Below are positions 1-22,170 of a stretch of DNA of 22,170 bases, in pieces. The position numbers and the translations under genes are program-made. Every line of letters starts with the position of its first letter. Within the stretch, counting starts at the first letter, position 1. The notes below the pieces were generated by a model that saw nothing but the letters and a program-made list of their open reading frames with translations, was not told the DNA's origin and made no database searches. Origin of the DNA: a virus (Duplodnaviria > Heunggongvirae > Uroviricota > Caudoviricetes); IMG/VR virus record IMGVR_UViG_2740892282_000009. The stretch is one strand, 5' to 3'.

Positions 1-267
1 TGTTCAGCAGATTATCAGGCGCAACTGAAGCGGCATAATCTGCGTGGAAGTATGAGCGCAAAAGGTTGCTGCTACGATAATGCCTGCGTGGAAAGCTTCT
101 TTCATTCGCTGAAAGTGGAATGTATCCATGGAGAACACTTTATCAGCCGGGAAATAATGCGGGCAACGGTGTTTAATTATATCGAATGTGATTACAATCG
201 GTGGCGGCGGCACAGTTGGTGTGGCGGCCTCAGTCCGGAACAATTTGAAAACCAGAACCTCGCTTAG
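1..267 (+). CDS. insF: IS3 transposase OrfB, C-terminal fragment (5' truncated by window edge)
   Basis: Translation [88 protein letters not shown] matches, from memory, the end of E. coli IS3 InsF (integrase-core C-terminus). Stop TAG at 265-267. Confidence 0.8.
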
Positions 268-297
268 GCCTGTGTCCATATTACGTGGGTAGGATCA
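259..297. repeat. IS3 right terminal inverted repeat (about 39 bp)
   Basis: CTCGCTTAGGCCTGTGTCCATATTACGTGGGTAGGATCA ends with the TGATC-type terminus (as reverse complement) typical of IS3 ends. Exact IR length is recalled, not computed. Confidence 0.6.
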
Positions 298-13699: not shown

Positions 13700-14854
13700 A
13701 TGCACATTGTAGCTCATAAAGGAATGACCAAATTGGTAAAGAATGTATATTTCGATGAATCAGGATTCACTGGTAATAACTTACTTTCAAAAGATCAGCC
13801 TTTTTTTAGTTACGCAGCAGTCGTGACTGATGATGAGGAAAGTAAACAGTTTGTTGATTATATAATAAACAAGTACTCGATCGCAGCCGAAGAGCTAAAA
13901 GGTAGCACTCTCGTAAATAGCAAGAGATTTCAACCAGCCGTAGATGAAATACTTAATCATTTCCGTGGTCGTATGCGTGTGGTTGTAAACGAAAAAAAAT
14001 ATGCCCTCTCAGGAAAATTCTTCGAATATATTTTTGAGCCAGTATTAGCAGCTAAAAGCTCAATTTTTTACAACCTTAAATTTCACCTATTCATCTCAAA
14101 TATAATGTATTTTTCTTTAATAGCTAAGGATGAATATTCAGAACTATTACATTCGCGATTTGAAGATTTTTCACGAGGTAAAATATTGGTTAATAGTTTT
14201 ATCGAACCAGTTGTTGGTTCTAAAAATTCTGAAATTATGATGGACATTCATGATTTCGCCAAGAATAACATCTCTATAATTGAAGAAGAATATGAAGGCC
14301 TTGAGGGTACTGGGATTGATAAGTGGTTATTAGATTTGACAACGACTTCTCTTTATAATCTCCTGTGCGATATGAGTAGTAAGTTTGGTACATTGAGAGC
14401 TATATGCGACAGCTCAAAACCATTAATTACTCATCAGGACTCATTCAATGAGATGATAGGCAATGATGAGATTGTGTTCGAGACTTTTCATGATAAAAAA
14501 ATCCCGATCACATTTAAGCTATCTGAGCCAATGATTCTTTCTGATTCTAAAGTCACGCATGGTATACAAATTGCGGATGTGGTAGCTGCGGCTAGCATTT
14601 ATGTCCTTAACAAGAAAAAATCGAAAGAAAAATATCATTCTAAATGGCTAAATCATTTTGAAGATGAGATTTTTTATTGGCAGTGCTGTGTTGTTCCCAC
14701 ACCAGAAAACCTTGACCCTAAAAATGTTAACAACCATTTAAATAGATATATTTTGCAAGAAATTGCAGAGCGAAGCAGAAACTCAACTCCTGTTTTAGAT
14801 GATATTGAGAAGGATATAATAAGAATTTCCAGAACATTAGCCATGCTACGTTGA
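13700..14854 (+). CDS. DUF3800-like protein (384-aa ORF; probable start at ATG 13724, 376 aa)
   Basis: N-terminal VYFDESGFTG matches the DESG-type signature I associate with DUF3800 (function unknown). AAAGGA immediately precedes ATG 13724. Followed by a strong hairpin terminator. Confidence 0.5.
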   Translation: MHIVAHKGMTKLVKNVYFDESGFTGNNLLSKDQPFFSYAAVVTDDEESKQFVDYIINKYSIAAEELKGSTLVNSKRFQPAVDEILNHFRGRMRVVVNEKKYALSGKFFEYIFEPVLAAKSSIFYNLKFHLFISNIMYFSLIAKDEYSELLHSRFEDFSRGKILVNSFIEPVVGSKNSEIMMDIHDFAKNNISIIEEEYEGLEGTGIDKWLLDLTTTSLYNLLCDMSSKFGTLRAICDSSKPLITHQDSFNEMIGNDEIVFETFHDKKIPITFKLSEPMILSDSKVTHGIQIADVVAAASIYVLNKKKSKEKYHSKWLNHFEDEIFYWQCCVVPTPENLDPKNVNNHLNRYILQEIAERSRNSTPVLDDIEKDIIRISRTLAMLR

Positions 14855-16020: not shown

Positions 16021-16332
16021 ATGGGCAAGAATGGTTTTGATCCGGCAATCAAACACGGGGTTCAGCAGTTTGAGCATTTAGGCCAATGGGCTAAGGTCTG
16101 CTATTGGGGATACAGTCTTGATGAGTTTTCATATGGGGATCGTGTTTTCTTCCAGAACCAGCAAGGTACATACTGGTTAGGCACGATTGAGCGTGATTGC
16201 TTCGTGTTCATACTGGAAACGCCGCTAAGTTCAGTACTGGAAGGCTTGCATTATCTGAGTACTGAGAATGCCGTCTATAAGCAGCATGAAGAAGATGGTT
16301 GGTTCTCTGGGCAGGGAGAATTACCGTTTTGA
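16021..16332 (+). CDS. Hypothetical protein (about 103 aa)
   Basis: The ORF track starts at 15943; ATG 16021 is preceded by GGAGGG. No recognisable motif. Confidence 0.35.
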   Translation: MGKNGFDPAIKHGVQQFEHLGQWAKVCYWGYSLDEFSYGDRVFFQNQQGTYWLGTIERDCFVFILETPLSSVLEGLHYLSTENAVYKQHEEDGWFSGQGELPF

Positions 16333-16432
16333 TAGCACTTCCACCAATCGCCCAAACAAACCTACCCAAATGCGAAAGGTGGAAGTACTACAATTATATC
16401 TTTTTGCATCAAAAATATAACCAAAACTTTGT

Positions 16433-17224
16433 TCATTTATCCCAAAGCGTCATAAGTTTACTCTTAATCTCATCCGTTATTGCTGAGTGATTCGACTTAT
16501 AGATGATTTTTAGTGCTTCAACGTTGTCGCCATTCTTGAATACTCTTCGCATTGAAGATGCCTTTGTTCTTGCAGTACTTTCCTTCCATTCTGGATGGTC
16601 AGTTACCATCTTTTCAACAAGATCAGTTGTGTTCATACCACTTTCAACATACTGATAGTACTCAATAAATGTCTGCATTCCTATTGTCTGTAGATCCCGG
16701 ATAGTGTTTGAATCTGGCTTCACCGTGATCTCTTCCTTTGAACGTTCAGTGTCTGGATCAATAAATTCAATGATGTCTGTTACACGTGGATCGTTAAGTA
16801 ATAAATTGCTGATTCTTAAAGTGTAACCATTCTGGTGCTCATTATAAAAACCATATTCCTTCACTAATTCATGTGGTATGGATACAGCATAACGAATTGA
16901 GAAATCATGGTTATATATTACGGCAATGAGCTCATCGAATTGGTTCAGATCATAATTTCTGATAATCCCAAGAATTAATGATTTGTTTTTTAAATTATTC
17001 TTACGAGACTTAATCTGAATTTTTCGATCATCAATCGTTGTAGCGTCATACCCTTTAGTACTAGGTGCAGCCAGTACCATTTGCATCTTATCCGCAACCA
17101 GCCATTCAGTGTACTCACTGATAGGATTGTTTCTGGTTCTGATAACCTCTCGTCGTTCTAACTCATCAAGCGTCAACTGATTCAGTTGCATCAATTCGAC
17201 GTTACTCAATTGTGATAAATCCAT
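16433..17224 (-). CDS. Hypothetical protein (263 aa), translationally coupled partner of the HNH nuclease
   Basis: Its ATG (17224-17222) abuts the stop of the upstream gene (TAA 17227-17225). Possible degenerate nuclease-like segment (GYDATTIDDRKIQIKSRK); otherwise unrecognised. Confidence 0.4.
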   Translation of the reverse strand: MDLSQLSNVELMQLNQLTLDELERREVIRTRNNPISEYTEWLVADKMQMVLAAPSTKGYDATTIDDRKIQIKSRKNNLKNKSLILGIIRNYDLNQFDELIAVIYNHDFSIRYAVSIPHELVKEYGFYNEHQNGYTLRISNLLLNDPRVTDIIEFIDPDTERSKEEITVKPDSNTIRDLQTIGMQTFIEYYQYVESGMNTTDLVEKMVTDHPEWKESTARTKASSMRRVFKNGDNVEALKIIYKSNHSAITDEIKSKLMTLWDK

Positions 17225-17953
17225 TTACTCGCTCCAAAAGGTCATTTTCTCTTTCAAGTCTGCAATTGAAAGTACTTTGCTCCCACGATGTACCATTGCA
17301 TGGCAATTTGGACATAATGGGACCATATCTGTTACGGGGTTGACCACATAGTTTTCCCCAATCGTATGAAGCGGCTTGATGTGATGTACATGAATGAATC
17401 CACGGCCATGTGTACCATAGACCTTCTCAAAATCGAAACCACAGCATTTACAGGTAGTACCGTGATGTTGGATGCAGGCTTGTCTGGCCTTTGGATCGCG
17501 TTCGTAGTAGTTCACTGTTACTTGAGTCTTTGCACCTTCAACAAAACTCTCTCCTGAAGGAATTTCATCAGGGAATGGATTAGGTAAGAAGTCTGCATAC
17601 CAAACAACGCCTTCTTTACGCAGATATCGCTTGTTTAATTTACGCTCAAAATCCTTGATAACTGCAATTTCAGGGTTATCCGGGTGTTCTGCGAAAACCA
17701 TATTGAAGGTGTAAAGTTCGTAGCCTTCATGGACTAACCTGACGTGTTCCAGTGCCTGGGTGTATCCCAGTTGTTTTTTGTTGTTTGAGTTGTACTCCCA
17801 ACGCTCTCGAAGAATGACTGACCGCTCTTGTTCACTCTCAACATCCCATGACCCAAAGATGACCATCTTCTTTTCATGGTTAACAAATGACCAACTCCAC
17901 GTCCAGTTACTGCAAGTAGCTCCGTGCGACTGGATGAATTGCTTCCGGTTCAT
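17225..17953 (-). CDS. McrA-like HNH nuclease with an unassigned N-terminal domain (242 aa)
   Basis: C-terminal HNH signature YERDPKARQACIQHHGTTCKCCGFDF...GFIHVHHIKPL...MVPLCPNCHAMVH, compared with E. coli McrA from memory. The Trp-rich N-terminal 150 aa (SNWTWSWSFVNHEKKMVIFGSWD...) may be a modified-base reader (EVE/SRA-like); this is a guess. Confidence 0.65.
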   Translation of the reverse strand: MNRKQFIQSHGATCSNWTWSWSFVNHEKKMVIFGSWDVESEQERSVILRERWEYNSNNKKQLGYTQALEHVRLVHEGYELYTFNMVFAEHPDNPEIAVIKDFERKLNKRYLRKEGVVWYADFLPNPFPDEIPSGESFVEGAKTQVTVNYYERDPKARQACIQHHGTTCKCCGFDFEKVYGTHGRGFIHVHHIKPLHTIGENYVVNPVTDMVPLCPNCHAMVHRGSKVLSIADLKEKMTFWSE

Positions 17954-18156
17954 TTCTAATCCTTTGTTGTATGATGCTGATATGTAATGTCTTATGTTAT
18001 CGGGATCTCAGGAGAGAGAGCAATTTTTTCATATAATTTGTGATCATTATCAACACCATAATTATAACTAACCTTAAGTTAAATTTAAGTAGCACTGATG
18101 GGTACAGAAAATTAATATTTACGATTCACTTTCCCAAATGTTAACATCCATCATTA
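17954..18156. promoter_or_regulatory. AT-rich divergent intergenic region (likely promoters for the HNH operon and the membrane-protein gene)
   Basis: 203-bp AT-rich spacer between divergently oriented genes; no -10/-35 pair confidently assigned. Confidence 0.3.
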
Positions 18157-18849
18157 TTGGTTGAGTTTCGAGTACTTCATGTGAATATTAAAATAACAAA
18201 TAGAATACTTGCATCCACAGTTATCGTACTTCTATGGGTAGCAATATTGGTGTTGGTTAAAGTACTTTTTCATGGAGGTAGCCAATTGGAATGGGGATCT
18301 ATTAGTGATTGGGTTAGTTCTATCGCCAATCTAATTATGGCAGGGGCAGCCCTATATGCAGCATGGAACGCTAAAAATTGGTTTCAAACTAAAATAAAGG
18401 AAAATGCATTAAATCAAGTTACTAAGTTCTGGACTAATTGCGATCTTTTTTCGTTAGAAATGTTAAAAACATATGAAAATGTACGCAGTCTCAACAATAC
18501 AGATCCTGATTTTGAGCCAAAAGACTTCGCTTACTTAGTGAGGACAGAAAAAGAAGTTATCGATCAACTACAAATAAAGCTAACTTCATTAAAAAATGAG
18601 TTGCAATCGCTTACTTTTTGGAAGGTATCACCAAAGGATGCAACCATTTTTAAAAATTATTTTTTCAGCAATCAAATGGCTCTGAGCACTTTAAAGGAAG
18701 CAATAAATTTTGATATAAATGATATATCTGAGCGATATCATTACAACATGAACTATGGAAAAGTATTAGTTGACACTTTTAAAGGTTTAATTAACACGCA
18801 TGAAACACTTAAAAAGGACATGAATAATCTTTTCCATTTCTCTAATTAG
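18157..18849 (+). CDS. Membrane protein with hydrophobic N-terminal segments and a soluble, coiled-coil-like C-terminal domain
   Basis: The ORF begins with TTG at 18157 and has no ATG before the second hydrophobic segment, so the start is uncertain (GTG 18178 possible). Hydrophobic segments ILASTVIVLLWVAILVLVKVLF and VSSIANLIMAGAALYAAW. AT-rich. Confidence 0.4.
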   Translation: MVEFRVLHVNIKITNRILASTVIVLLWVAILVLVKVLFHGGSQLEWGSISDWVSSIANLIMAGAALYAAWNAKNWFQTKIKENALNQVTKFWTNCDLFSLEMLKTYENVRSLNNTDPDFEPKDFAYLVRTEKEVIDQLQIKLTSLKNELQSLTFWKVSPKDATIFKNYFFSNQMALSTLKEAINFDINDISERYHYNMNYGKVLVDTFKGLINTHETLKKDMNNLFHFSN

Positions 18850-18867
18850 AGTTCACATCGTTCAACA

Positions 18868-18890
18868 AGCGGTGGACAATCTTCACCGCT
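18868..18890. terminator. Hairpin downstream of the membrane-protein gene (terminator candidate)
   Basis: AGCGGTG-gacaatctt-CACCGCT: 7-bp stem with 9-nt loop, followed by an A/T-rich tract. Confidence 0.4.
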
Positions 18891-18989
18891 ATAATTAATA
18901 CTTCAATATACGTATTTACAATGGCTTCATTAAAGTACTCATCTTTTGGTTCTCTTATGGTTATGTATTAAAAGTATCTTATCCCATCA

Positions 18990-19869
18990 CTATTTAACAC
19001 TACCATCATTCATAACCCATTTTTTCTTGCCCGACTGAAAATCCTCGACTATAGCTTTAATTTGTTCTGAAAAATCTATAATGGATGTACTAGCTATAGG
19101 TTCTCGATAAACGTAATCACAATGGTATTCTGTAATTTTAAATCGCACCTTACTATCTAAACCCTCGAGCCAACCATCATTGAATTTTTCAAAATATTCA
19201 CCAGGGCCATATTTCAGTTCTTTACTCAAACTGAAAATCCTGTTTGGTATATCATGTATAGTATATTTCACATTGTTTTGAACATCATTGATGAAGACCT
19301 CATTGTTCATCTTTCCTTTAAATATATTTTGGAAATCATCTTCTTTATAGTCGCTCTGAGAGTTAAACCATGCACCATCAACACGCACATTAAAATTTTT
19401 AATTTCTGGTAATGTCCGTGCAATTATATTCATATGAATTGTTTTTAACAATGGCTCACCATCTTCAGTAATCCAATCGGACTCTTGCTGACCACGTATA
19501 ACAAGCAACTGTATATTGTGCTGTTCAGCTTTTATCTTTGCACCACTCTGATATCCTGTCCGTGTAGCATAAATTAGCTTAAGACCTGGGATGTCTGAAG
19601 TTTTACCAATATATGCATCAATTTTTTTCAATAGATACTGGTGTTGAATAATCTTTACACTCTATCACTGATCTATAGATATTACCCCCTAACTCAAATT
19701 CCCAATAGATATCAAATTCCCTTTCAATACCTGAACGATCTTTAATCTTTTTATTCTTCTCAATGTTAATATTATTGAGGCTTGGTATATTCTCAGCTGC
19801 AATAAGTGACCGCTGGATATCCCGTACTAGTTCTTCATATTCCTTGCCTGAATTGTACATATGAATCAA
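18990..19869 (-). pseudogene. Mrr-like (PD-(D/E)xK, restriction-endonuclease-type) nuclease gene split by a frameshift in a 7-nt homopolymer
   Basis: The upstream ORF (19618-19869) carries EFDIYWEF...VIECKDY; the downstream ORF (18990-19631) continues with KLIYATRTGYQSGA, matching the Mrr catalytic-domain pattern as I recall it. The two frames overlap in the T7 run at 19622-19628 (A7 on the coding strand); the downstream frame has only a TTG start. Removing one nucleotide gives a continuous reading frame of about 295 aa. Confidence 0.55.
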
Positions 19870-20541
19870 TATCTCTAAACAGAATGTATTGCTAATAGTA
19901 CTCCAAATGCCTGTAATTGTTCAAGTATCAGATAAGCAACCTTACAGCTTAGATAGAAAGCTAAGACTGCTTCTGTTGTTCAAATTAATATATCTACTTG
20001 CAAGGAACGATTATGTAAATCGTATGCAACAATCTGGGTTCGGTCGATCCACGGTTCGCGGTTGGGACTGCGTGGGCAACTCACTAATAATTTGATCAAT
20101 TACTTTGCCAGTACTTAGAAAGTAATTATGTGAGGCTTTAACAGCCGAACGCCCCGACAAGGGAGTTTACGACCACGTAGTTACTCACGAATACTTACCA
20201 AATCACTTTGAGTTCTTCTTTTGTCAGTACTGTTACTTGTCTGAGCGAAAGCGAGTAAATCCCTTAGTTCTTTTCGAGTACTAGCGAGAAAAAACGCAAG
20301 GTTCGGTTTAATTTGTTTTTCAGTGACTATACGACCGCAGGGAGTGTAGGCACTCAAAGACCGATTTGGACGTAGTACAAGAGGTCTTAATAATTTCTAA
20401 TTATGGTGTCGAAATTCTGGGCAACCCATATACAGTGTGTTTTAACTCATATTGATACTATATCTAGTGCAAGCAACACTAATCAACCCCATAAAAACCA
20501 CATTTAACCTTAATTACGACATTTGAACCGTTATTAAAACA

Positions 20542-21066
20542 CTACTTAGAATGTCTTAATTCGGGATAAATTGTAGCTATAACCTTTAGTAGGTCTGCCT
20601 TAGTACAGCCACCATCTAAAGCCATACGTAGTTGATATGCTTCTTCACCAGTTAAGTACTGTGCTCCCTCTGGTGTATCACTTCTTACCGGCTTACCACT
20701 ACTTAGAATCGCATTCAGGCCTTCACATATAGCAATCGTGACCATCTTATAATCTCGTACTGAGGAATCGCCGTACTCATTGAGTGTAAAGGCATCAAAG
20801 TACTCGATATTGTTCTTTATCGCTTCATCTGTGATGTATCGAGTCGATGTAACCAGAAGTAGCATATTCTTGTTTGAGAAAGTCTTACGTTTCTTGTTCT
20901 TTTCAAAGTAACTTTTAACAGAGTTTGATATTACTCTACGTGCTTCATCTGTAAGTTGATTGAGATGGCGTACTCCCCTTAGATGATCTTGTAATTCTGC
21001 ATTATCGTGTTTTTTTGGTTTTCGTCCACGTTTCTTTATTTCATGCGGCTCTTTCTTTTTTGTCAT
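20542..21066 (-). CDS. Hypothetical protein with basic N-terminus (174 aa)
   Basis: Lys/Arg-rich N-terminus (MTKKKEPHEIKKRGRKPKK) suggests nucleic-acid binding. Directly downstream of the HNH homing-endonuclease-like gene; backbone composition (GTAC-rich). Confidence 0.4.
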   Translation of the reverse strand: MTKKKEPHEIKKRGRKPKKHDNAELQDHLRGVRHLNQLTDEARRVISNSVKSYFEKNKKRKTFSNKNMLLLVTSTRYITDEAIKNNIEYFDAFTLNEYGDSSVRDYKMVTIAICEGLNAILSSGKPVRSDTPEGAQYLTGEEAYQLRMALDGGCTKADLLKVIATIYPELRHSK

Positions 21067-21131
21067 AATAAATACCCCTATGATAGATGTTAATATTGGC
21101 CTGTAGTATTTCCAGTACTCAGGCCATTTCG

Positions 21132-21632
21132 TTATTTTGATTTTTGTAATAGTACCGCACTAAGTTTTGGAAATGCTTTATACTGCTGCGATATTTTATA
21201 GATATATGATTTACGCCCAACAACATAAGCAGCATGAGCTTCTTCTATCGTTGGGTATGTCCCAAACTTATGTACTTTCTTATCAAATGTTGCTTGTGCT
21301 TGATAGCCCTTATGATTAACGACAACACCGGTTGATAATGATGTTGGTACTTTACGGAACAATTGATTTACTTCTCTCGGTACAAAGATGCAGTTACTTG
21401 GGCTGTACTCATTACCTCCTAATATGTCTTTATCTAAATGCCAACCATCAACAACATTTTCAACATACCAATAATAAAAATCACTAAACCGATACCAGTC
21501 ATCGCAGATGGTAACAGTACTGTAATTGATGTTATTACGTACTCTTGAGTGAAAATTATTCCATACTCGTAGTGCTTGTTTTACATGTGGTAATTCCTGA
21601 CCCTTTAGGTCATTTCTTTTTTCCTTTTTCAT
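21132..21632 (-). CDS. HNH homing-endonuclease-like protein (HNH_3-type motif plus AP2-like DNA-binding region, 166 aa)
   Basis: WHLDKDILGGNEYSPSNCIFVPREVN fits the H-N-N pattern of phage HNH_3 endonucleases; the C-terminal GYQAQATFDKKVHKFGTYPTIEEAHAAY is AP2-like. ATG at 21632 with AAGGA 7 nt upstream. Confidence 0.6.
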   Translation of the reverse strand: MKKEKRNDLKGQELPHVKQALRVWNNFHSRVRNNINYSTVTICDDWYRFSDFYYWYVENVVDGWHLDKDILGGNEYSPSNCIFVPREVNQLFRKVPTSLSTGVVVNHKGYQAQATFDKKVHKFGTYPTIEEAHAAYVVGRKSYIYKISQQYKAFPKLSAVLLQKSK

Positions 21633-21650
21633 ATTTCATCCTTGAAACTA

Positions 21651-21671
21651 AGTACTTCATCCTGAAGTACT
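21651..21671. promoter_or_regulatory. Perfect inverted repeat AGTACTTCA-tcc-TGAAGTACT (operator or hairpin candidate)
   Basis: 9-bp arms with a 3-bp spacer, about 20 bp upstream of the HNH_3 start and 35 bp downstream of the small upstream ORF. The 3-nt loop is tight for an RNA hairpin, which favours a protein-binding site. Confidence 0.4.
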
Positions 21672-21705
21672 GTTAGTACCTTTCTAAAGTGAAAGTACCA
21701 AACCC

Positions 21706-21858
21706 TTACTTACTATCTAAAATCCCATATTGCTGTATCAGATACTGAATGGCTGAACTCATCGTTGTAGCCTTACCACACACTATAAGTGATTTTAGTA
21801 TTTCTTCTTGTGTAGGACTTAATCTCACCCCAACACTAATAGTTTTCTTTTCTTTCAT
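21706..21858 (-). CDS. Small ORF (50 aa), possible ribbon-helix-helix-type DNA-binding protein
   Basis: Not in the supplied ORF track (below its length cutoff). Hand translation: MKEKKTISVGVRLSPTQEEILKSLIVCGKATTMSSAIQYLIQQYGILDSK; AAGGA 6 nt upstream of the ATG. The pattern (basic N-terminus, VRLSPxxEExL..., ...SSAIQYL) resembles small RHH regulators or antitoxins. Confidence 0.35.
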   Translation of the reverse strand: MKEKKTISVGVRLSPTQEEILKSLIVCGKATTMSSAIQYLIQQYGILDSK

Positions 21859-22170
21859 AACATTCCTTTGTTTAACATTTTCCATTTTTTCTCAACGCAA
21901 AAAGATCCCCATGTTGGGGATTACTTTTTGATGTAGAATTATAATTATCACGTTGAGGTAGTGATCACCATAATATGGATTATACCATGTTATTTTTTAT
22001 CGTTCCAAAAACTTGATAACCATTTTATTTATGGTTGGAATTTTCAAAGGTAGTGCTAATACTGTTAGTAACATAAAAAAGATGCACAGTACTATCCAAC
22101 ATGGAAATAGTACGAACATATAGATTGCCGTAGCAATGATTTCAAAGATTATTTTGTATATCCAATTCAT

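What the first reader, a model, noticed from the sequence alone, without database searches (positions are those of the whole stretch)
16433..17953. Translationally coupled operon: McrA-like HNH nuclease with unassigned N-terminal domain plus a 263-aa partner of unknown function
The 242-aa protein ends with a clear HNH motif (CKCCGF...HVHHIKPL...CPNCHAMVH) and has a Trp-rich N-terminal domain of unknown type, an architecture expected for modification-dependent (type IV-like) restriction enzymes. Its stop codon directly abuts the start of a second gene (TAA then ATG at 17227-17222), so the two are co-expressed. McrA-type enzymes normally act alone, so a dedicated partner is unexplained; it could be an immunity, specificity or effector component. 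The operon shares a divergent AT-rich control region with a membrane-protein gene.
Basis: partly seen in the sequence, partly recalled or inferred. Interest (0 to 1): 0.65.

Follow-up and report, generated by a model that had tools for sequence, protein, structure and literature searches.

The report
Two methyl-DNA-cutting nucleases in one operon
A prophage carries two back-to-back genes that each look like a stand-alone enzyme cutting foreign DNA with modified cytosines; the "unknown partner" belongs to the already characterised BisI/Eco15I restriction enzyme family, so the finding is largely explained.

Summary
Two minus-strand genes, 17953-17225 (242 aa) and 17224-16433 (263 aa), abut as TAA|ATG.

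- **Partner:** it is not of unknown function. Residues 1-155 are a BisI-family PD-(D/E)XK nuclease: Eco15I structure 8q5m at E 3e-34, and 72% identity to the characterised enzyme Pan13I. The catalytic residues E40, D60 and Q70-x-K72 are intact. Residues ~170-263 match the Eco15I C-terminal domain, whose function is still unknown.
- **HNH protein:** it combines a McrA-type zinc-ribbon HNH domain with an N-terminal domain that has no Pfam or PDB sequence match. The predicted fold is SRA/PUA-like, and the best full-length structural match is the SRA-HNH enzyme TagI.
- **Independence:** each gene occurs without the other. None of 80 HNH loci from other species has the partner. One of them keeps a 35-nt stump of a deleted partner beside an intact HNH gene. 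Eco15I itself has no HNH neighbour.
- **Recurrent pairing:** within the Pan13I-like clade, 9 of 12 distinct contexts place this HNH family directly upstream.

Best reading: a mobile two-gene cassette of two autonomous modification-dependent restriction enzymes, not an enzyme with an immunity, specificity or effector partner. Interest is modest.

The parts
17225..17953 (-). Gene 1: 242-aa SRA-like + HNH endonuclease, a candidate type IV modification-dependent restriction enzyme
   Evidence: ORF. More than 4,377 full-length homologues. AlphaFold model with pLDDT 84. TagI (SRA-HNH) is the top Foldseek match in the PDB, E 5.4e-4 over 254 columns.
17579..17953 (-). N-terminal domain (aa 1-125), Trp-rich (C14-x-N16-W17-x-W19-S20-W21-S22-F23), predicted SRA/PUA-like reader fold
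17276..17509 (-). HNH (beta-beta-alpha-Me) nuclease domain with a zinc ribbon (aa ~149-226)
   Evidence: Pfam PF01844 E 2.1e-6. EcoKMcrA 6ghc E 1e-6 over residues 148-226 only. C168, C171, C214, C217, H188, H190, H191, N216, H218 and H222 are invariant in 61 homologues.
17222..17235 (-). Gene junction: GGAG Shine-Dalgarno sequence, 7 nt, then TAA stop directly followed by ATG start
   Evidence: Read directly from the sequence. Equivalent tight junctions occur in L084-086, L088-091, L002 and L096.
16433..17224 (-). Gene 2: 263-aa Eco15I-type member of the BisI family (type IIM m5C-dependent restriction endonuclease)
   Evidence: BLASTP against full-length Eco15I: 33% identity over residues 19-244, E 1e-46. 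PMC4926085 reports Eco15I homologues of 263-294 aa.
16760..17224 (-). BisI-family PD-(D/E)XK nuclease and recognition domain (aa 1-155)
   Evidence: PDB 8q5m Eco15I E 3.1e-34 and 8q5n NhoI E 8.8e-19. PADLOC mREase_II PDLC03212 E 1.3e-62. 72% identity to Pan13I, WP_014606222.1. E40, D60, Q70, K72 and also N32, S55, R74, R89, H130, T135 align with NhoI functional residues.
16436..16717 (-). C-terminal domain (aa ~170-263), homologous to Eco15I_Ctd; predicted six-helix bundle; function unknown
17954..18156 (.). AT-rich (29.6% G+C) divergent intergenic region, the presumed promoter region of the operon
   Evidence: Composition. The simple sigma-70 consensus scan found no site here, so the promoter is inferred from position only.
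18157..18849 (+). Divergent 230-aa membrane-protein gene: a recurrent neighbour, not shown to be part of the system
   Evidence: Hydrophobic helix at about residues 17-40. Homologues lie next to the HNH and/or BisI-like genes, on either side, in L003, L111, L131, L132 and L136. It is absent from the L002 version of the pair. No Pfam or PADLOC hit.

Best explanation
The two genes form a small mobile operon carried in the accessory region of a siphovirus-type prophage. It encodes two separate, self-sufficient modification-dependent restriction endonucleases that protect the lysogen against incoming DNA with modified cytosines.

**Gene 2 (263 aa).** This is an Eco15I/Pan13I-type BisI-family enzyme. 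[quoted passage not shown] It should cut inside GCNGC when three or four (less well two) of the cytosines are 5mC or 5hmC. Its extra C-terminal helical domain is the same unexplained domain as in Eco15I.

**Gene 1 (242 aa).** An SRA/PUA-like N-terminal domain would recognise a modified base, and a McrA-type zinc-ribbon HNH domain would cut nearby.

**Status of each step.** The tight junction gives co-transcription and probably coupled translation. Homology, catalytic residues, domain folds and gene distribution are shown here. Modification dependence of the HNH enzyme, its target base, and any anti-phage effect are inferred.
For: **Partner is a BisI-family enzyme**
- Eco15I 8q5m E 3.1e-34 and NhoI 8q5n E 8.8e-19.
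- PADLOC type II methyl-directed REase model, E 1.3e-62.
- 33% identity to full-length Eco15I, including its C-terminal domain.
- 72% identity to Pan13I = WP_014606222.1. Pan13I and Eco15I are listed as active on GCNGC with 3-4 m5C > 2 m5C in Table 2 of PMC4926085.
- The catalytic E/D/QxK residues, shown essential in Eco15I (PMC11347163), are present as E40, D60 and Q70-I-K72 and are invariant in the clade.

**HNH protein is a reader + nuclease enzyme**
- The HNH and zinc ligands are invariant in 61 homologues.
- The N-domain model is confident.
- The same N-domain is fused to different nucleases (HNH, NOV_C, MUG113) and sits beside EVE domains. This pattern is typical of modified-base readers.

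**The two genes are autonomous**
- 0 of 80 HNH loci from other species carry a BisI-like gene within 5 kb, and there is no other recurrent neighbour.
- L003 retains the first 35 nt of the partner gene after an intact, 97%-identical HNH gene.
- Partner-clade genes occur without HNH in L087, L111, L131, L132 and L133.
- Eco15I orthologues sit beside an XRE regulator and have no HNH neighbour.

**Mobility and context**
- The pair occurs in at least three unrelated contexts: the prophage at yeaG/mipA, an integrase island at ffs/ybaY, and a CI-repressor prophage.
- No methyltransferase was found among the window ORFs scanned.
Against: - The pairing is too frequent within the Pan13I-like clade to be casual: 9 of 12 distinct contexts. 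One of these has a much more divergent HNH homologue (45% identity, L083). Some functional benefit of co-residence, or even cooperation, is therefore likely and is not explained by simple independence.
- Three methyl-pocket or readout positions differ from NhoI (its Q96, S98 and V140 correspond to I84, G86 and Q131). They are identical to Pan13I.
- No promoter was detected by the consensus scan.
Confidence: 0.75

Rival explanations
1. This is an obligate two-component system. The 263-aa protein would be a dedicated subunit of the HNH enzyme, acting in a heteromeric complex as an immunity, specificity or effector component.
For: - Translational coupling is conserved across diverged copies.
- HNH lies directly upstream in 9 of 12 distinct Pan13I-clade contexts.
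- L083 pairs the partner with a 45%-identical HNH homologue.
- The unexplained C-terminal domain could be an interaction module.
Against: - Close homologues of the partner (Pan13I, Eco15I) are active alone in vitro (PMC4926085, PMC11347163).
- Variants lacking the C-terminal domain pair with HNH just as tightly (L088-091), so that domain is not the link.
- HNH survives intact after deletion of the partner (L003) and stands alone in 80 of 80 other-species loci and on an IncFII plasmid.
- The partner occurs without HNH in five loci.
Confidence: 0.1
2. The HNH protein is a phage housekeeping nuclease, either a terminase-associated packaging HNH or a homing endonuclease. It would then lie next to a restriction gene only by accident of prophage gene order.
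For: The locus is in a prophage, about 4.3 kb from the terminase genes. HNH proteins are common packaging accessories (general knowledge; cited in PMC4926085).
Against: - The HNH domain is of the McrA/COG3183 zinc-ribbon type, with best matches to EcoKMcrA and ScoMcrA.
- It carries a 125-aa SRA-like domain.
- The family occurs widely outside phages, in chromosomal islands, in an IncFII plasmid, and in many phyla.
- Several accessory genes separate it from the terminase genes.
Confidence: 0.05
3. The two nucleases are autonomous in chemistry but cooperate functionally. For example, they might cover complementary modification patterns or back each other up against phage anti-restriction proteins, so that selection keeps them as one cassette.
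For: The pairing recurs across 68-100% partner identity and 45-100% HNH identity, in different genomic contexts. All 10 E. coli complete genomes with this HNH gene also carry the partner.
Against: Both genes are frequently found singly. No data exist on the HNH enzyme's substrate. Defence genes cluster generally, without needing cooperation.
Confidence: 0.35

Closest known systems
Eco15I (E. coli 541-15; PDB 8q5m/8q5o), BisI family, type IIM
   Same: Same two-domain architecture: a BisI-like nuclease domain plus a ~100-aa C-terminal domain. 33% identity over both domains. Same catalytic E/D/QxK residues. Neither has an adjacent methyltransferase.
   Different: Only 33% identical. Eco15I loci have an upstream XRE-type regulator and no HNH gene. 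This gene is instead translationally coupled to an HNH gene.
Pan13I (Pantoea ananatis PA13, WP_014606222.1), BisI family
   Same: 72% identity over the whole nuclease domain. Identical residues at the positions that differ from NhoI (I84, G86, Q131 equivalents). Members of its 90% cluster lie directly downstream of, and overlap, a homologous HNH gene (L088-091).
   Different: Pan13I is 157 aa and lacks the C-terminal domain.
TagI / ScoA3IV group (SRA-HNH type IV enzymes; PDB 6ghs)
   Different: No detectable sequence similarity in the reader domain, and no Pfam SAD_SRA or EVE hit. The conserved motif is Trp-rich (NWxWSWSF). Substrate is unknown.
EcoKMcrA (PDB 6ghc)
   Same: The HNH domain is homologous (E 1e-6, residues 148-226) and has the same CxxC...CxxC zinc ribbon.
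   Different: The N-terminal domain is unrelated in sequence to McrA's NEco domain; only the HNH region aligns. 'McrA-like' therefore applies to the nuclease half only.
VcaM4I / TspA15I group (EVE-HNH)
   Same: Reader + HNH logic. Some proteins combine an EVE domain, this N-domain and HNH in one chain (P0191, P0198, P0232).

Membership tests
BisI family (type IIM modification-dependent REases) | Sequence homology of the nuclease/recognition domain to characterised members | tested here: met
   Eco15I E 3.1e-34 and NhoI E 8.8e-19. PADLOC mREase_II E 1.3e-62. 72% identity to Pan13I. Pfam DUF6998 scores 26.8 bits, just under its cut-off of 27.
BisI family (type IIM modification-dependent REases) | Catalytic residues: Glu in helix alpha1, Asp of the (P)D motif, and Q/E-x-K | tested here: met
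   E40, D60 (as GYD) and Q70-I71-K72 align with the Eco15I AD/QIK and NhoI E50/WD/QVK motifs. They are invariant in 27 clade members.
BisI family (type IIM modification-dependent REases) | Residues that read GCNGC and the cytosine methyl groups (NhoI N42, S65, R84, Q96, S98, R101, H139, V140, T144) | tested here: inconclusive
   N32, S55, R74, R89, H130 and T135 are conserved. The Q96, S98 and V140 equivalents are I84, G86 and Q131, the same as in active Pan13I. This mapping was done by hand from the HMMER alignment.
BisI family (type IIM modification-dependent REases) | Cleavage within GCNGC only when several cytosines are 5mC or 5hmC | not testable with these tools
   Needs enzyme assays. 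Inferred from Pan13I and Eco15I data in PMC4926085 and PMC11347163.
Eco15I subtype of the BisI family | Additional ~100-130-aa C-terminal domain homologous to Eco15I_Ctd | tested here: met
   The BLASTP alignment runs through residues 181-244 of the partner and 208-271 of Eco15I. Conserved G27, M28, F31, Y34, E60, R64, S68, L83 and S89 in alignment A2.
PUA-superfamily reader + HNH type IV enzymes (TagI/ScoA3IV, VcaM4I kinds) | C-terminal HNH beta-beta-alpha-Me nuclease with intact catalytic and zinc ligands | tested here: met
   PF01844 above threshold. Cys and His residues invariant. Structural matches to McrA, TagI and ScoMcrA HNH domains.
PUA-superfamily reader + HNH type IV enzymes (TagI/ScoA3IV, VcaM4I kinds) | N-terminal SRA/EVE/PUA-type domain that binds a modified base | tested here: inconclusive
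PUA-superfamily reader + HNH type IV enzymes (TagI/ScoA3IV, VcaM4I kinds) | No cognate methyltransferase next to the gene | tested here: met
   No methyltransferase domain was found in the window ORFs scanned or among the annotated neighbours in L001 and L002. L001 has one ORF annotated 'methyltransferase' about 16 kb away, which gave no Pfam hit.
PUA-superfamily reader + HNH type IV enzymes (TagI/ScoA3IV, VcaM4I kinds) | Modification-dependent DNA cleavage | not testable with these tools
   Needs assays on modified and unmodified DNA.
EcoKMcrA family | N-terminal NEco 5mC-reading domain | tested here: not met
   Only residues 148-226 (the HNH domain) align to 6ghc. The N-domain profile finds no McrA chain.

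The most novel reading that the evidence does not exclude
The recurrent, translationally coupled pairing of an SRA-like-HNH enzyme with a Pan13I/Eco15I-type enzyme might be a cooperative two-nuclease defence unit. In the long form, the unexplained C-terminal domain could act as a regulatory or interaction module. In addition, the N-terminal 'NWxWSWSF' domain would be a new family of modified-base readers with an unknown ligand.
Probability: 0.12. Interest if true: 0.55.

Novelty: new variant of a known kind. Interest (0 to 1): 0.3.

Why it matters
The practical result is a correction: the "unknown partner" is an Eco15I/Pan13I-type restriction enzyme, so no new kind of accessory protein is needed.

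Three smaller points are of use to restriction-enzyme and phage-defence specialists.
- **An unannotated reader domain.** The HNH protein carries a widespread N-terminal domain (more than 4,000 HNH-protein homologues; 258 clusters at 50% identity for the domain alone). It looks like an SRA-type reader and is swapped between HNH and NOV_C nucleases. It is a good candidate for a new specificity among modification-dependent enzymes, which are useful as epigenetic tools.
- **A pairing not mentioned in the BisI papers read.** The Pan13I-like branch of the BisI family usually travels as a cassette with this HNH gene. The three BisI-family papers consulted do not mention this. It may bear on their open question about the natural targets of BisI enzymes.
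- **The Eco15I C-terminal domain.** It is dispensable for the pairing and still has no assignable function.

Tried and rejected
- **Immunity or antitoxin role for gene 2.** Rejected. HNH stays intact where gene 2 has been deleted (35-nt stump in L003), and HNH is solitary in 80 of 80 other-species loci.
- **The Eco15I-type C-terminal domain links the enzyme to HNH proteins** (PMC4926085 states that it resembles putative HNH endonucleases). Not reproduced. A profile search of the domain found only 13 small ORFs consisting of that domain alone and no HNH fusion. The ones inspected are frameshift or truncation fragments of Eco15I-like genes. Short partners without this domain pair with HNH equally well.
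- **Assigning the N-domain by sequence.** A Pfam scan of 25 members and a PDB profile search gave nothing. NCBIfam gave only sub-threshold HNH-region hits.
- **Promoter and terminator scan of 16250-18250.** No consensus promoter in the divergent spacer and no terminator after gene 2.
- **A conserved third gene.** All-against-all clustering of HNH neighbours found no recurrent family apart from the membrane protein shared by related prophages.
- **Phage database search of the structural half of the window.** Only the IS3 end matched.
Full report
**1. The observation**

On the minus strand, ORF 17953..17225 encodes 242 aa and ORF 17224..16433 encodes 263 aa. The stop TAA (17227-17225) is followed at once by ATG (17224-17222). 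A GGAG sequence lies 7 nt upstream of that ATG, inside the end of gene 1. Gene 1 ends with CKCCGF...HVHHIKPL...CPNCHAMVH and passes Pfam's HNH threshold (28.2 bits against 21.4).

A divergent gene (18157-18849, +) encodes a protein with a strong N-terminal hydrophobic helix.

**2. Where the window comes from**

The window is a low-G+C (38%) prophage. It encodes a gpA-type large terminase, a lambda-family portal, a protease-capsid fusion and tail proteins. It is 99.9% identical over 16440-22170 to a prophage inserted between mipA and yeaG in E. coli AREA_C483. That copy is broken up by IS elements, and an IS3-family insertion alters the last few codons of gene 2.

The two genes lie in the accessory region between the terminase genes and the serine recombinase. 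This region also holds a DUF3800 gene and a weakly Mrr-like gene.

**3. What the "partner" is**

Residues 1-155 match the solved structures of two BisI-family enzymes: Eco15I (8q5m, E 3.1e-34) and NhoI (8q5n, E 8.8e-19). They also match the PADLOC model for type II methyl-directed restriction enzymes at E 1.3e-62.

Against the full 290-aa Eco15I sequence (supplement of PMC11347163), the alignment runs from residue 19 to 244 at 33% identity (E 1e-46). It therefore includes the C-terminal domain of Eco15I. PMC4926085 reports 34 Eco15I homologues of 263-294 aa. This protein is one of them.

Its nuclease domain is 72% identical to WP_014606222.1. That accession is Pan13I in Table 2 of PMC4926085, an enzyme that cuts GCNGC carrying three or four 5mC better than two.

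The catalytic residues shown to be essential in Eco15I are present as E40, D60 and Q70-I-K72. They are invariant in 27 clade members.

I mapped the NhoI residues that read the sequence and the methyl groups by hand from the HMMER alignment.
- N42, S65, R84, R101, H139 and T144 are conserved.
- Q96, S98 and V140 are replaced by I84, G86 and Q131, exactly as in active Pan13I.

The C-terminal domain is predicted as a six-helix bundle (pLDDT 84). It has only generic helical or HTH-like structural matches. PMC11347163 found that this domain does not bind the target DNA or change specificity, and calls its function unknown. Nothing here changes that.

**4. What the HNH protein is**

Only residues 148-226 resemble EcoKMcrA (E 1e-6) and ScoMcrA. 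"McrA-like" therefore applies to the nuclease half only. The zinc-ribbon cysteines (C168, C171, C214, C217) and the HNH histidines and asparagine (H188, H190, H191, N216, H218, H222) are invariant in 61 homologues.

The N-terminal 125 residues have no Pfam, NCBIfam or PDB sequence match, even with a 25-member profile. The AlphaFold model of this domain is confident, mostly above pLDDT 90. Structure comparison gave these results.
- Foldseek places the SRA-HNH enzyme TagI first, aligned over 254 columns (E 5.4e-4).

An exhaustive search with the N-domain alone found 258 clusters at 50% identity. The domain occurs in several arrangements.
- Before HNH, in most cases.
- Before NOV_C (P0170, P0205, P0207, P0209, P0212).
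- Before MUG113 (P0241).
- Together with EVE and HNH in one protein (P0191, P0198, P0232).

**5. Are the two genes a system?**

*Starting from HNH.* The family is large, with more than 4,377 full-length homologues. In 80 loci from 80 other species, none has a BisI-like gene within 5 kb (tblastn E <= 1e-3), and no other neighbour recurs. The same holds for an abundant Enterobacter cluster (P0002) and an IncFII-plasmid copy (P0028).

In the Buttiauxella locus L003, the HNH gene is 97% identical and intact. After its TAA come the first 35 nt of the partner gene, then unrelated DNA. The partner was deleted there and HNH kept. This excludes an immunity role for gene 2.

*Starting from the partner.* I grouped loci by sequence and kept those with enough upstream DNA. 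Among relatives with at least 67% identity in the nuclease domain, 9 of 12 distinct contexts have this HNH family upstream.
- **With HNH, junction abutting, overlapping or 2 nt apart (seven groups):** window/L001/L101/L128; L129/L102; L103/L130; L084-086; L002/L096/L106/L107/L109; L088-092; L113-115.
- **With HNH but separated by a 191-aa gene:** L093/L116/L134.
- **With HNH but after a 186-nt gap:** L083.
- **Without HNH:** L111/L131; L087; L132/L133.

Three further points bear on the pairing.
- The short Pan13I-type genes, which lack the C-terminal domain, pair just as tightly (L088-091, TAATG overlap). That domain is therefore not what links the two genes.
- In L083 the HNH homologue is only 45% identical while the partner's nuclease domain is 78% identical. 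This points to re-association or recombination rather than simple co-inheritance.
- More distant BisI-like genes at 31-45% identity, including Eco15I orthologues that sit beside an XRE regulator, never have the HNH gene.

In complete E. coli genomes the pair is rare (10 of 5,426), but all ten hits contain both genes. Nine of these lie in an integrase island at ffs/ybaY, at 83% DNA identity to the window.

**6. Mechanism proposed**

The cassette most likely expresses two independent homodimeric enzymes from one transcript.

The BisI-type enzyme should bind GCNGC as a dimer, sense three or four cytosine methyl or hydroxymethyl groups in the major groove without flipping, and cut within the site. 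This is by homology to the NhoI and Eco15I structures (PMC11347163). As a BisI-type enzyme tested in PMC4926085 did not cut Dcm-methylated lambda DNA, this enzyme should be compatible with a dcm+ E. coli host.

The HNH enzyme would use its SRA-like domain to recognise a modified base and cut nearby, as TagI-type enzymes do. Because the hosts are normally dcm+ and dam+, its target is presumably something other than Dcm or Dam sites. This is my inference and is untested.

Why the two travel together is open. Broader coverage of modified DNA, or redundancy against anti-restriction, is plausible. A physical complex is not excluded but has no support.

**7. Comparison with what is known, and novelty**

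Gene 2 is a new member of a characterised family: the BisI family, Eco15I architecture, closest to Pan13I. Gene 1 follows the known reader + HNH design, but its reader domain is not in Pfam or the PDB by sequence. The three BisI-family papers consulted (PMC4926085, PMC8281217, PMC11347163) do not mention an HNH neighbour, and "DUF6998" occurs in no searchable paper.

PMC4926085 does say that the Eco15I C-terminal domain resembles putative HNH endonucleases. I could not reproduce this, and neither could PMC11347163.

**8. Verdict**

- The mystery of a dedicated partner is resolved: it is a second, autonomous modification-dependent restriction enzyme.
- What remains of interest is a candidate new reader-domain family and a recurrent two-nuclease cassette on mobile elements.
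- Interest is 0.3.

**Limits of this work**
- Locus counts are small and only roughly dereplicated.
- The HNH-centred sample has one genome per species.
- The fold assignments rest on predicted models.
- No function was tested.

Noticed in passing
window 18157-18849 (+); also L003 4050-4763, L111 1831-2544, L131 3795-4535, L132 2637-3353, L136 4174-4797: A ~210-245-aa membrane protein with the conserved motif (L/M)(E/D)WG(S/N)xSD lies next to the HNH and/or BisI-like genes in many related prophage loci. It sits on either side of them, and is present even when only one nuclease is there. It has no Pfam or PADLOC hit and is absent from the E. coli ffs-island copy of the pair. It may be a conserved prophage accessory or exclusion gene flanking a variable cargo slot.
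   Followed up: partly
window 18990-19869 (-), frameshift at 19622: A 289-aa gene with a weak Mrr_cat (restriction endonuclease) match (E 0.0016 on the intact copy in L001) is split into two ORFs in the window. The cause is a T7 run where L001 has T6. This could be a pseudogene, slippage or a sequencing error. It makes a third nuclease-like gene in this accessory region.
   Followed up: partly
L003 5730-5764: A 35-nt remnant of the BisI-like gene's 5' end, with a C-to-T change creating a stop codon, follows an intact 97%-identical HNH gene in a Buttiauxella genome. It is a clear footprint of partner loss.
   Followed up: yes
L083 4689-5159; L136 3315-3788: A ~156-aa protein with an N-terminal transmembrane helix (motif ...FLIACTSLYFS...) recurs immediately downstream of the module. 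In L083 it follows the BisI-like gene; in L136 it follows a solitary HNH gene. It has no Pfam hit.
   Followed up: no
L096 3047-3839; L098 2983-3845; L099 2971-3845: Several Eco15I-type genes are split by frameshifts into a DUF6998 ORF and a separate ORF for the C-terminal domain. At least some of the 'separate small proteins' homologous to the Eco15I C-terminal domain reported in PMC4926085 may be such fragments rather than free-standing genes.
   Followed up: partly
window 1-297: The left end of the window is identical to the end of an IS3 element (100% to two IS3 copies in L002). The prophage is therefore flanked or interrupted by IS3 here.
   Followed up: no
window 13700-14854 (+): A 384-aa DUF3800 protein (Pfam E 3.3e-9) lies in the same accessory region between the terminase genes and the nuclease operon. 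Its function is unknown.
   Followed up: no
L088 5779-7340: In the Pantoea-type prophage that carries the short HNH + Pan13I-like pair, a DarT/Macro (DarTG-like) gene pair lies about 1.3 kb downstream. This fits the region being a defence-cargo hotspot.
   Followed up: no
L104 847-1406: One metagenomic copy has an HNH gene missing residues ~104-158, an apparent internal deletion, next to an intact partner gene. This suggests HNH can also decay while the BisI-like gene is kept.
   Followed up: no
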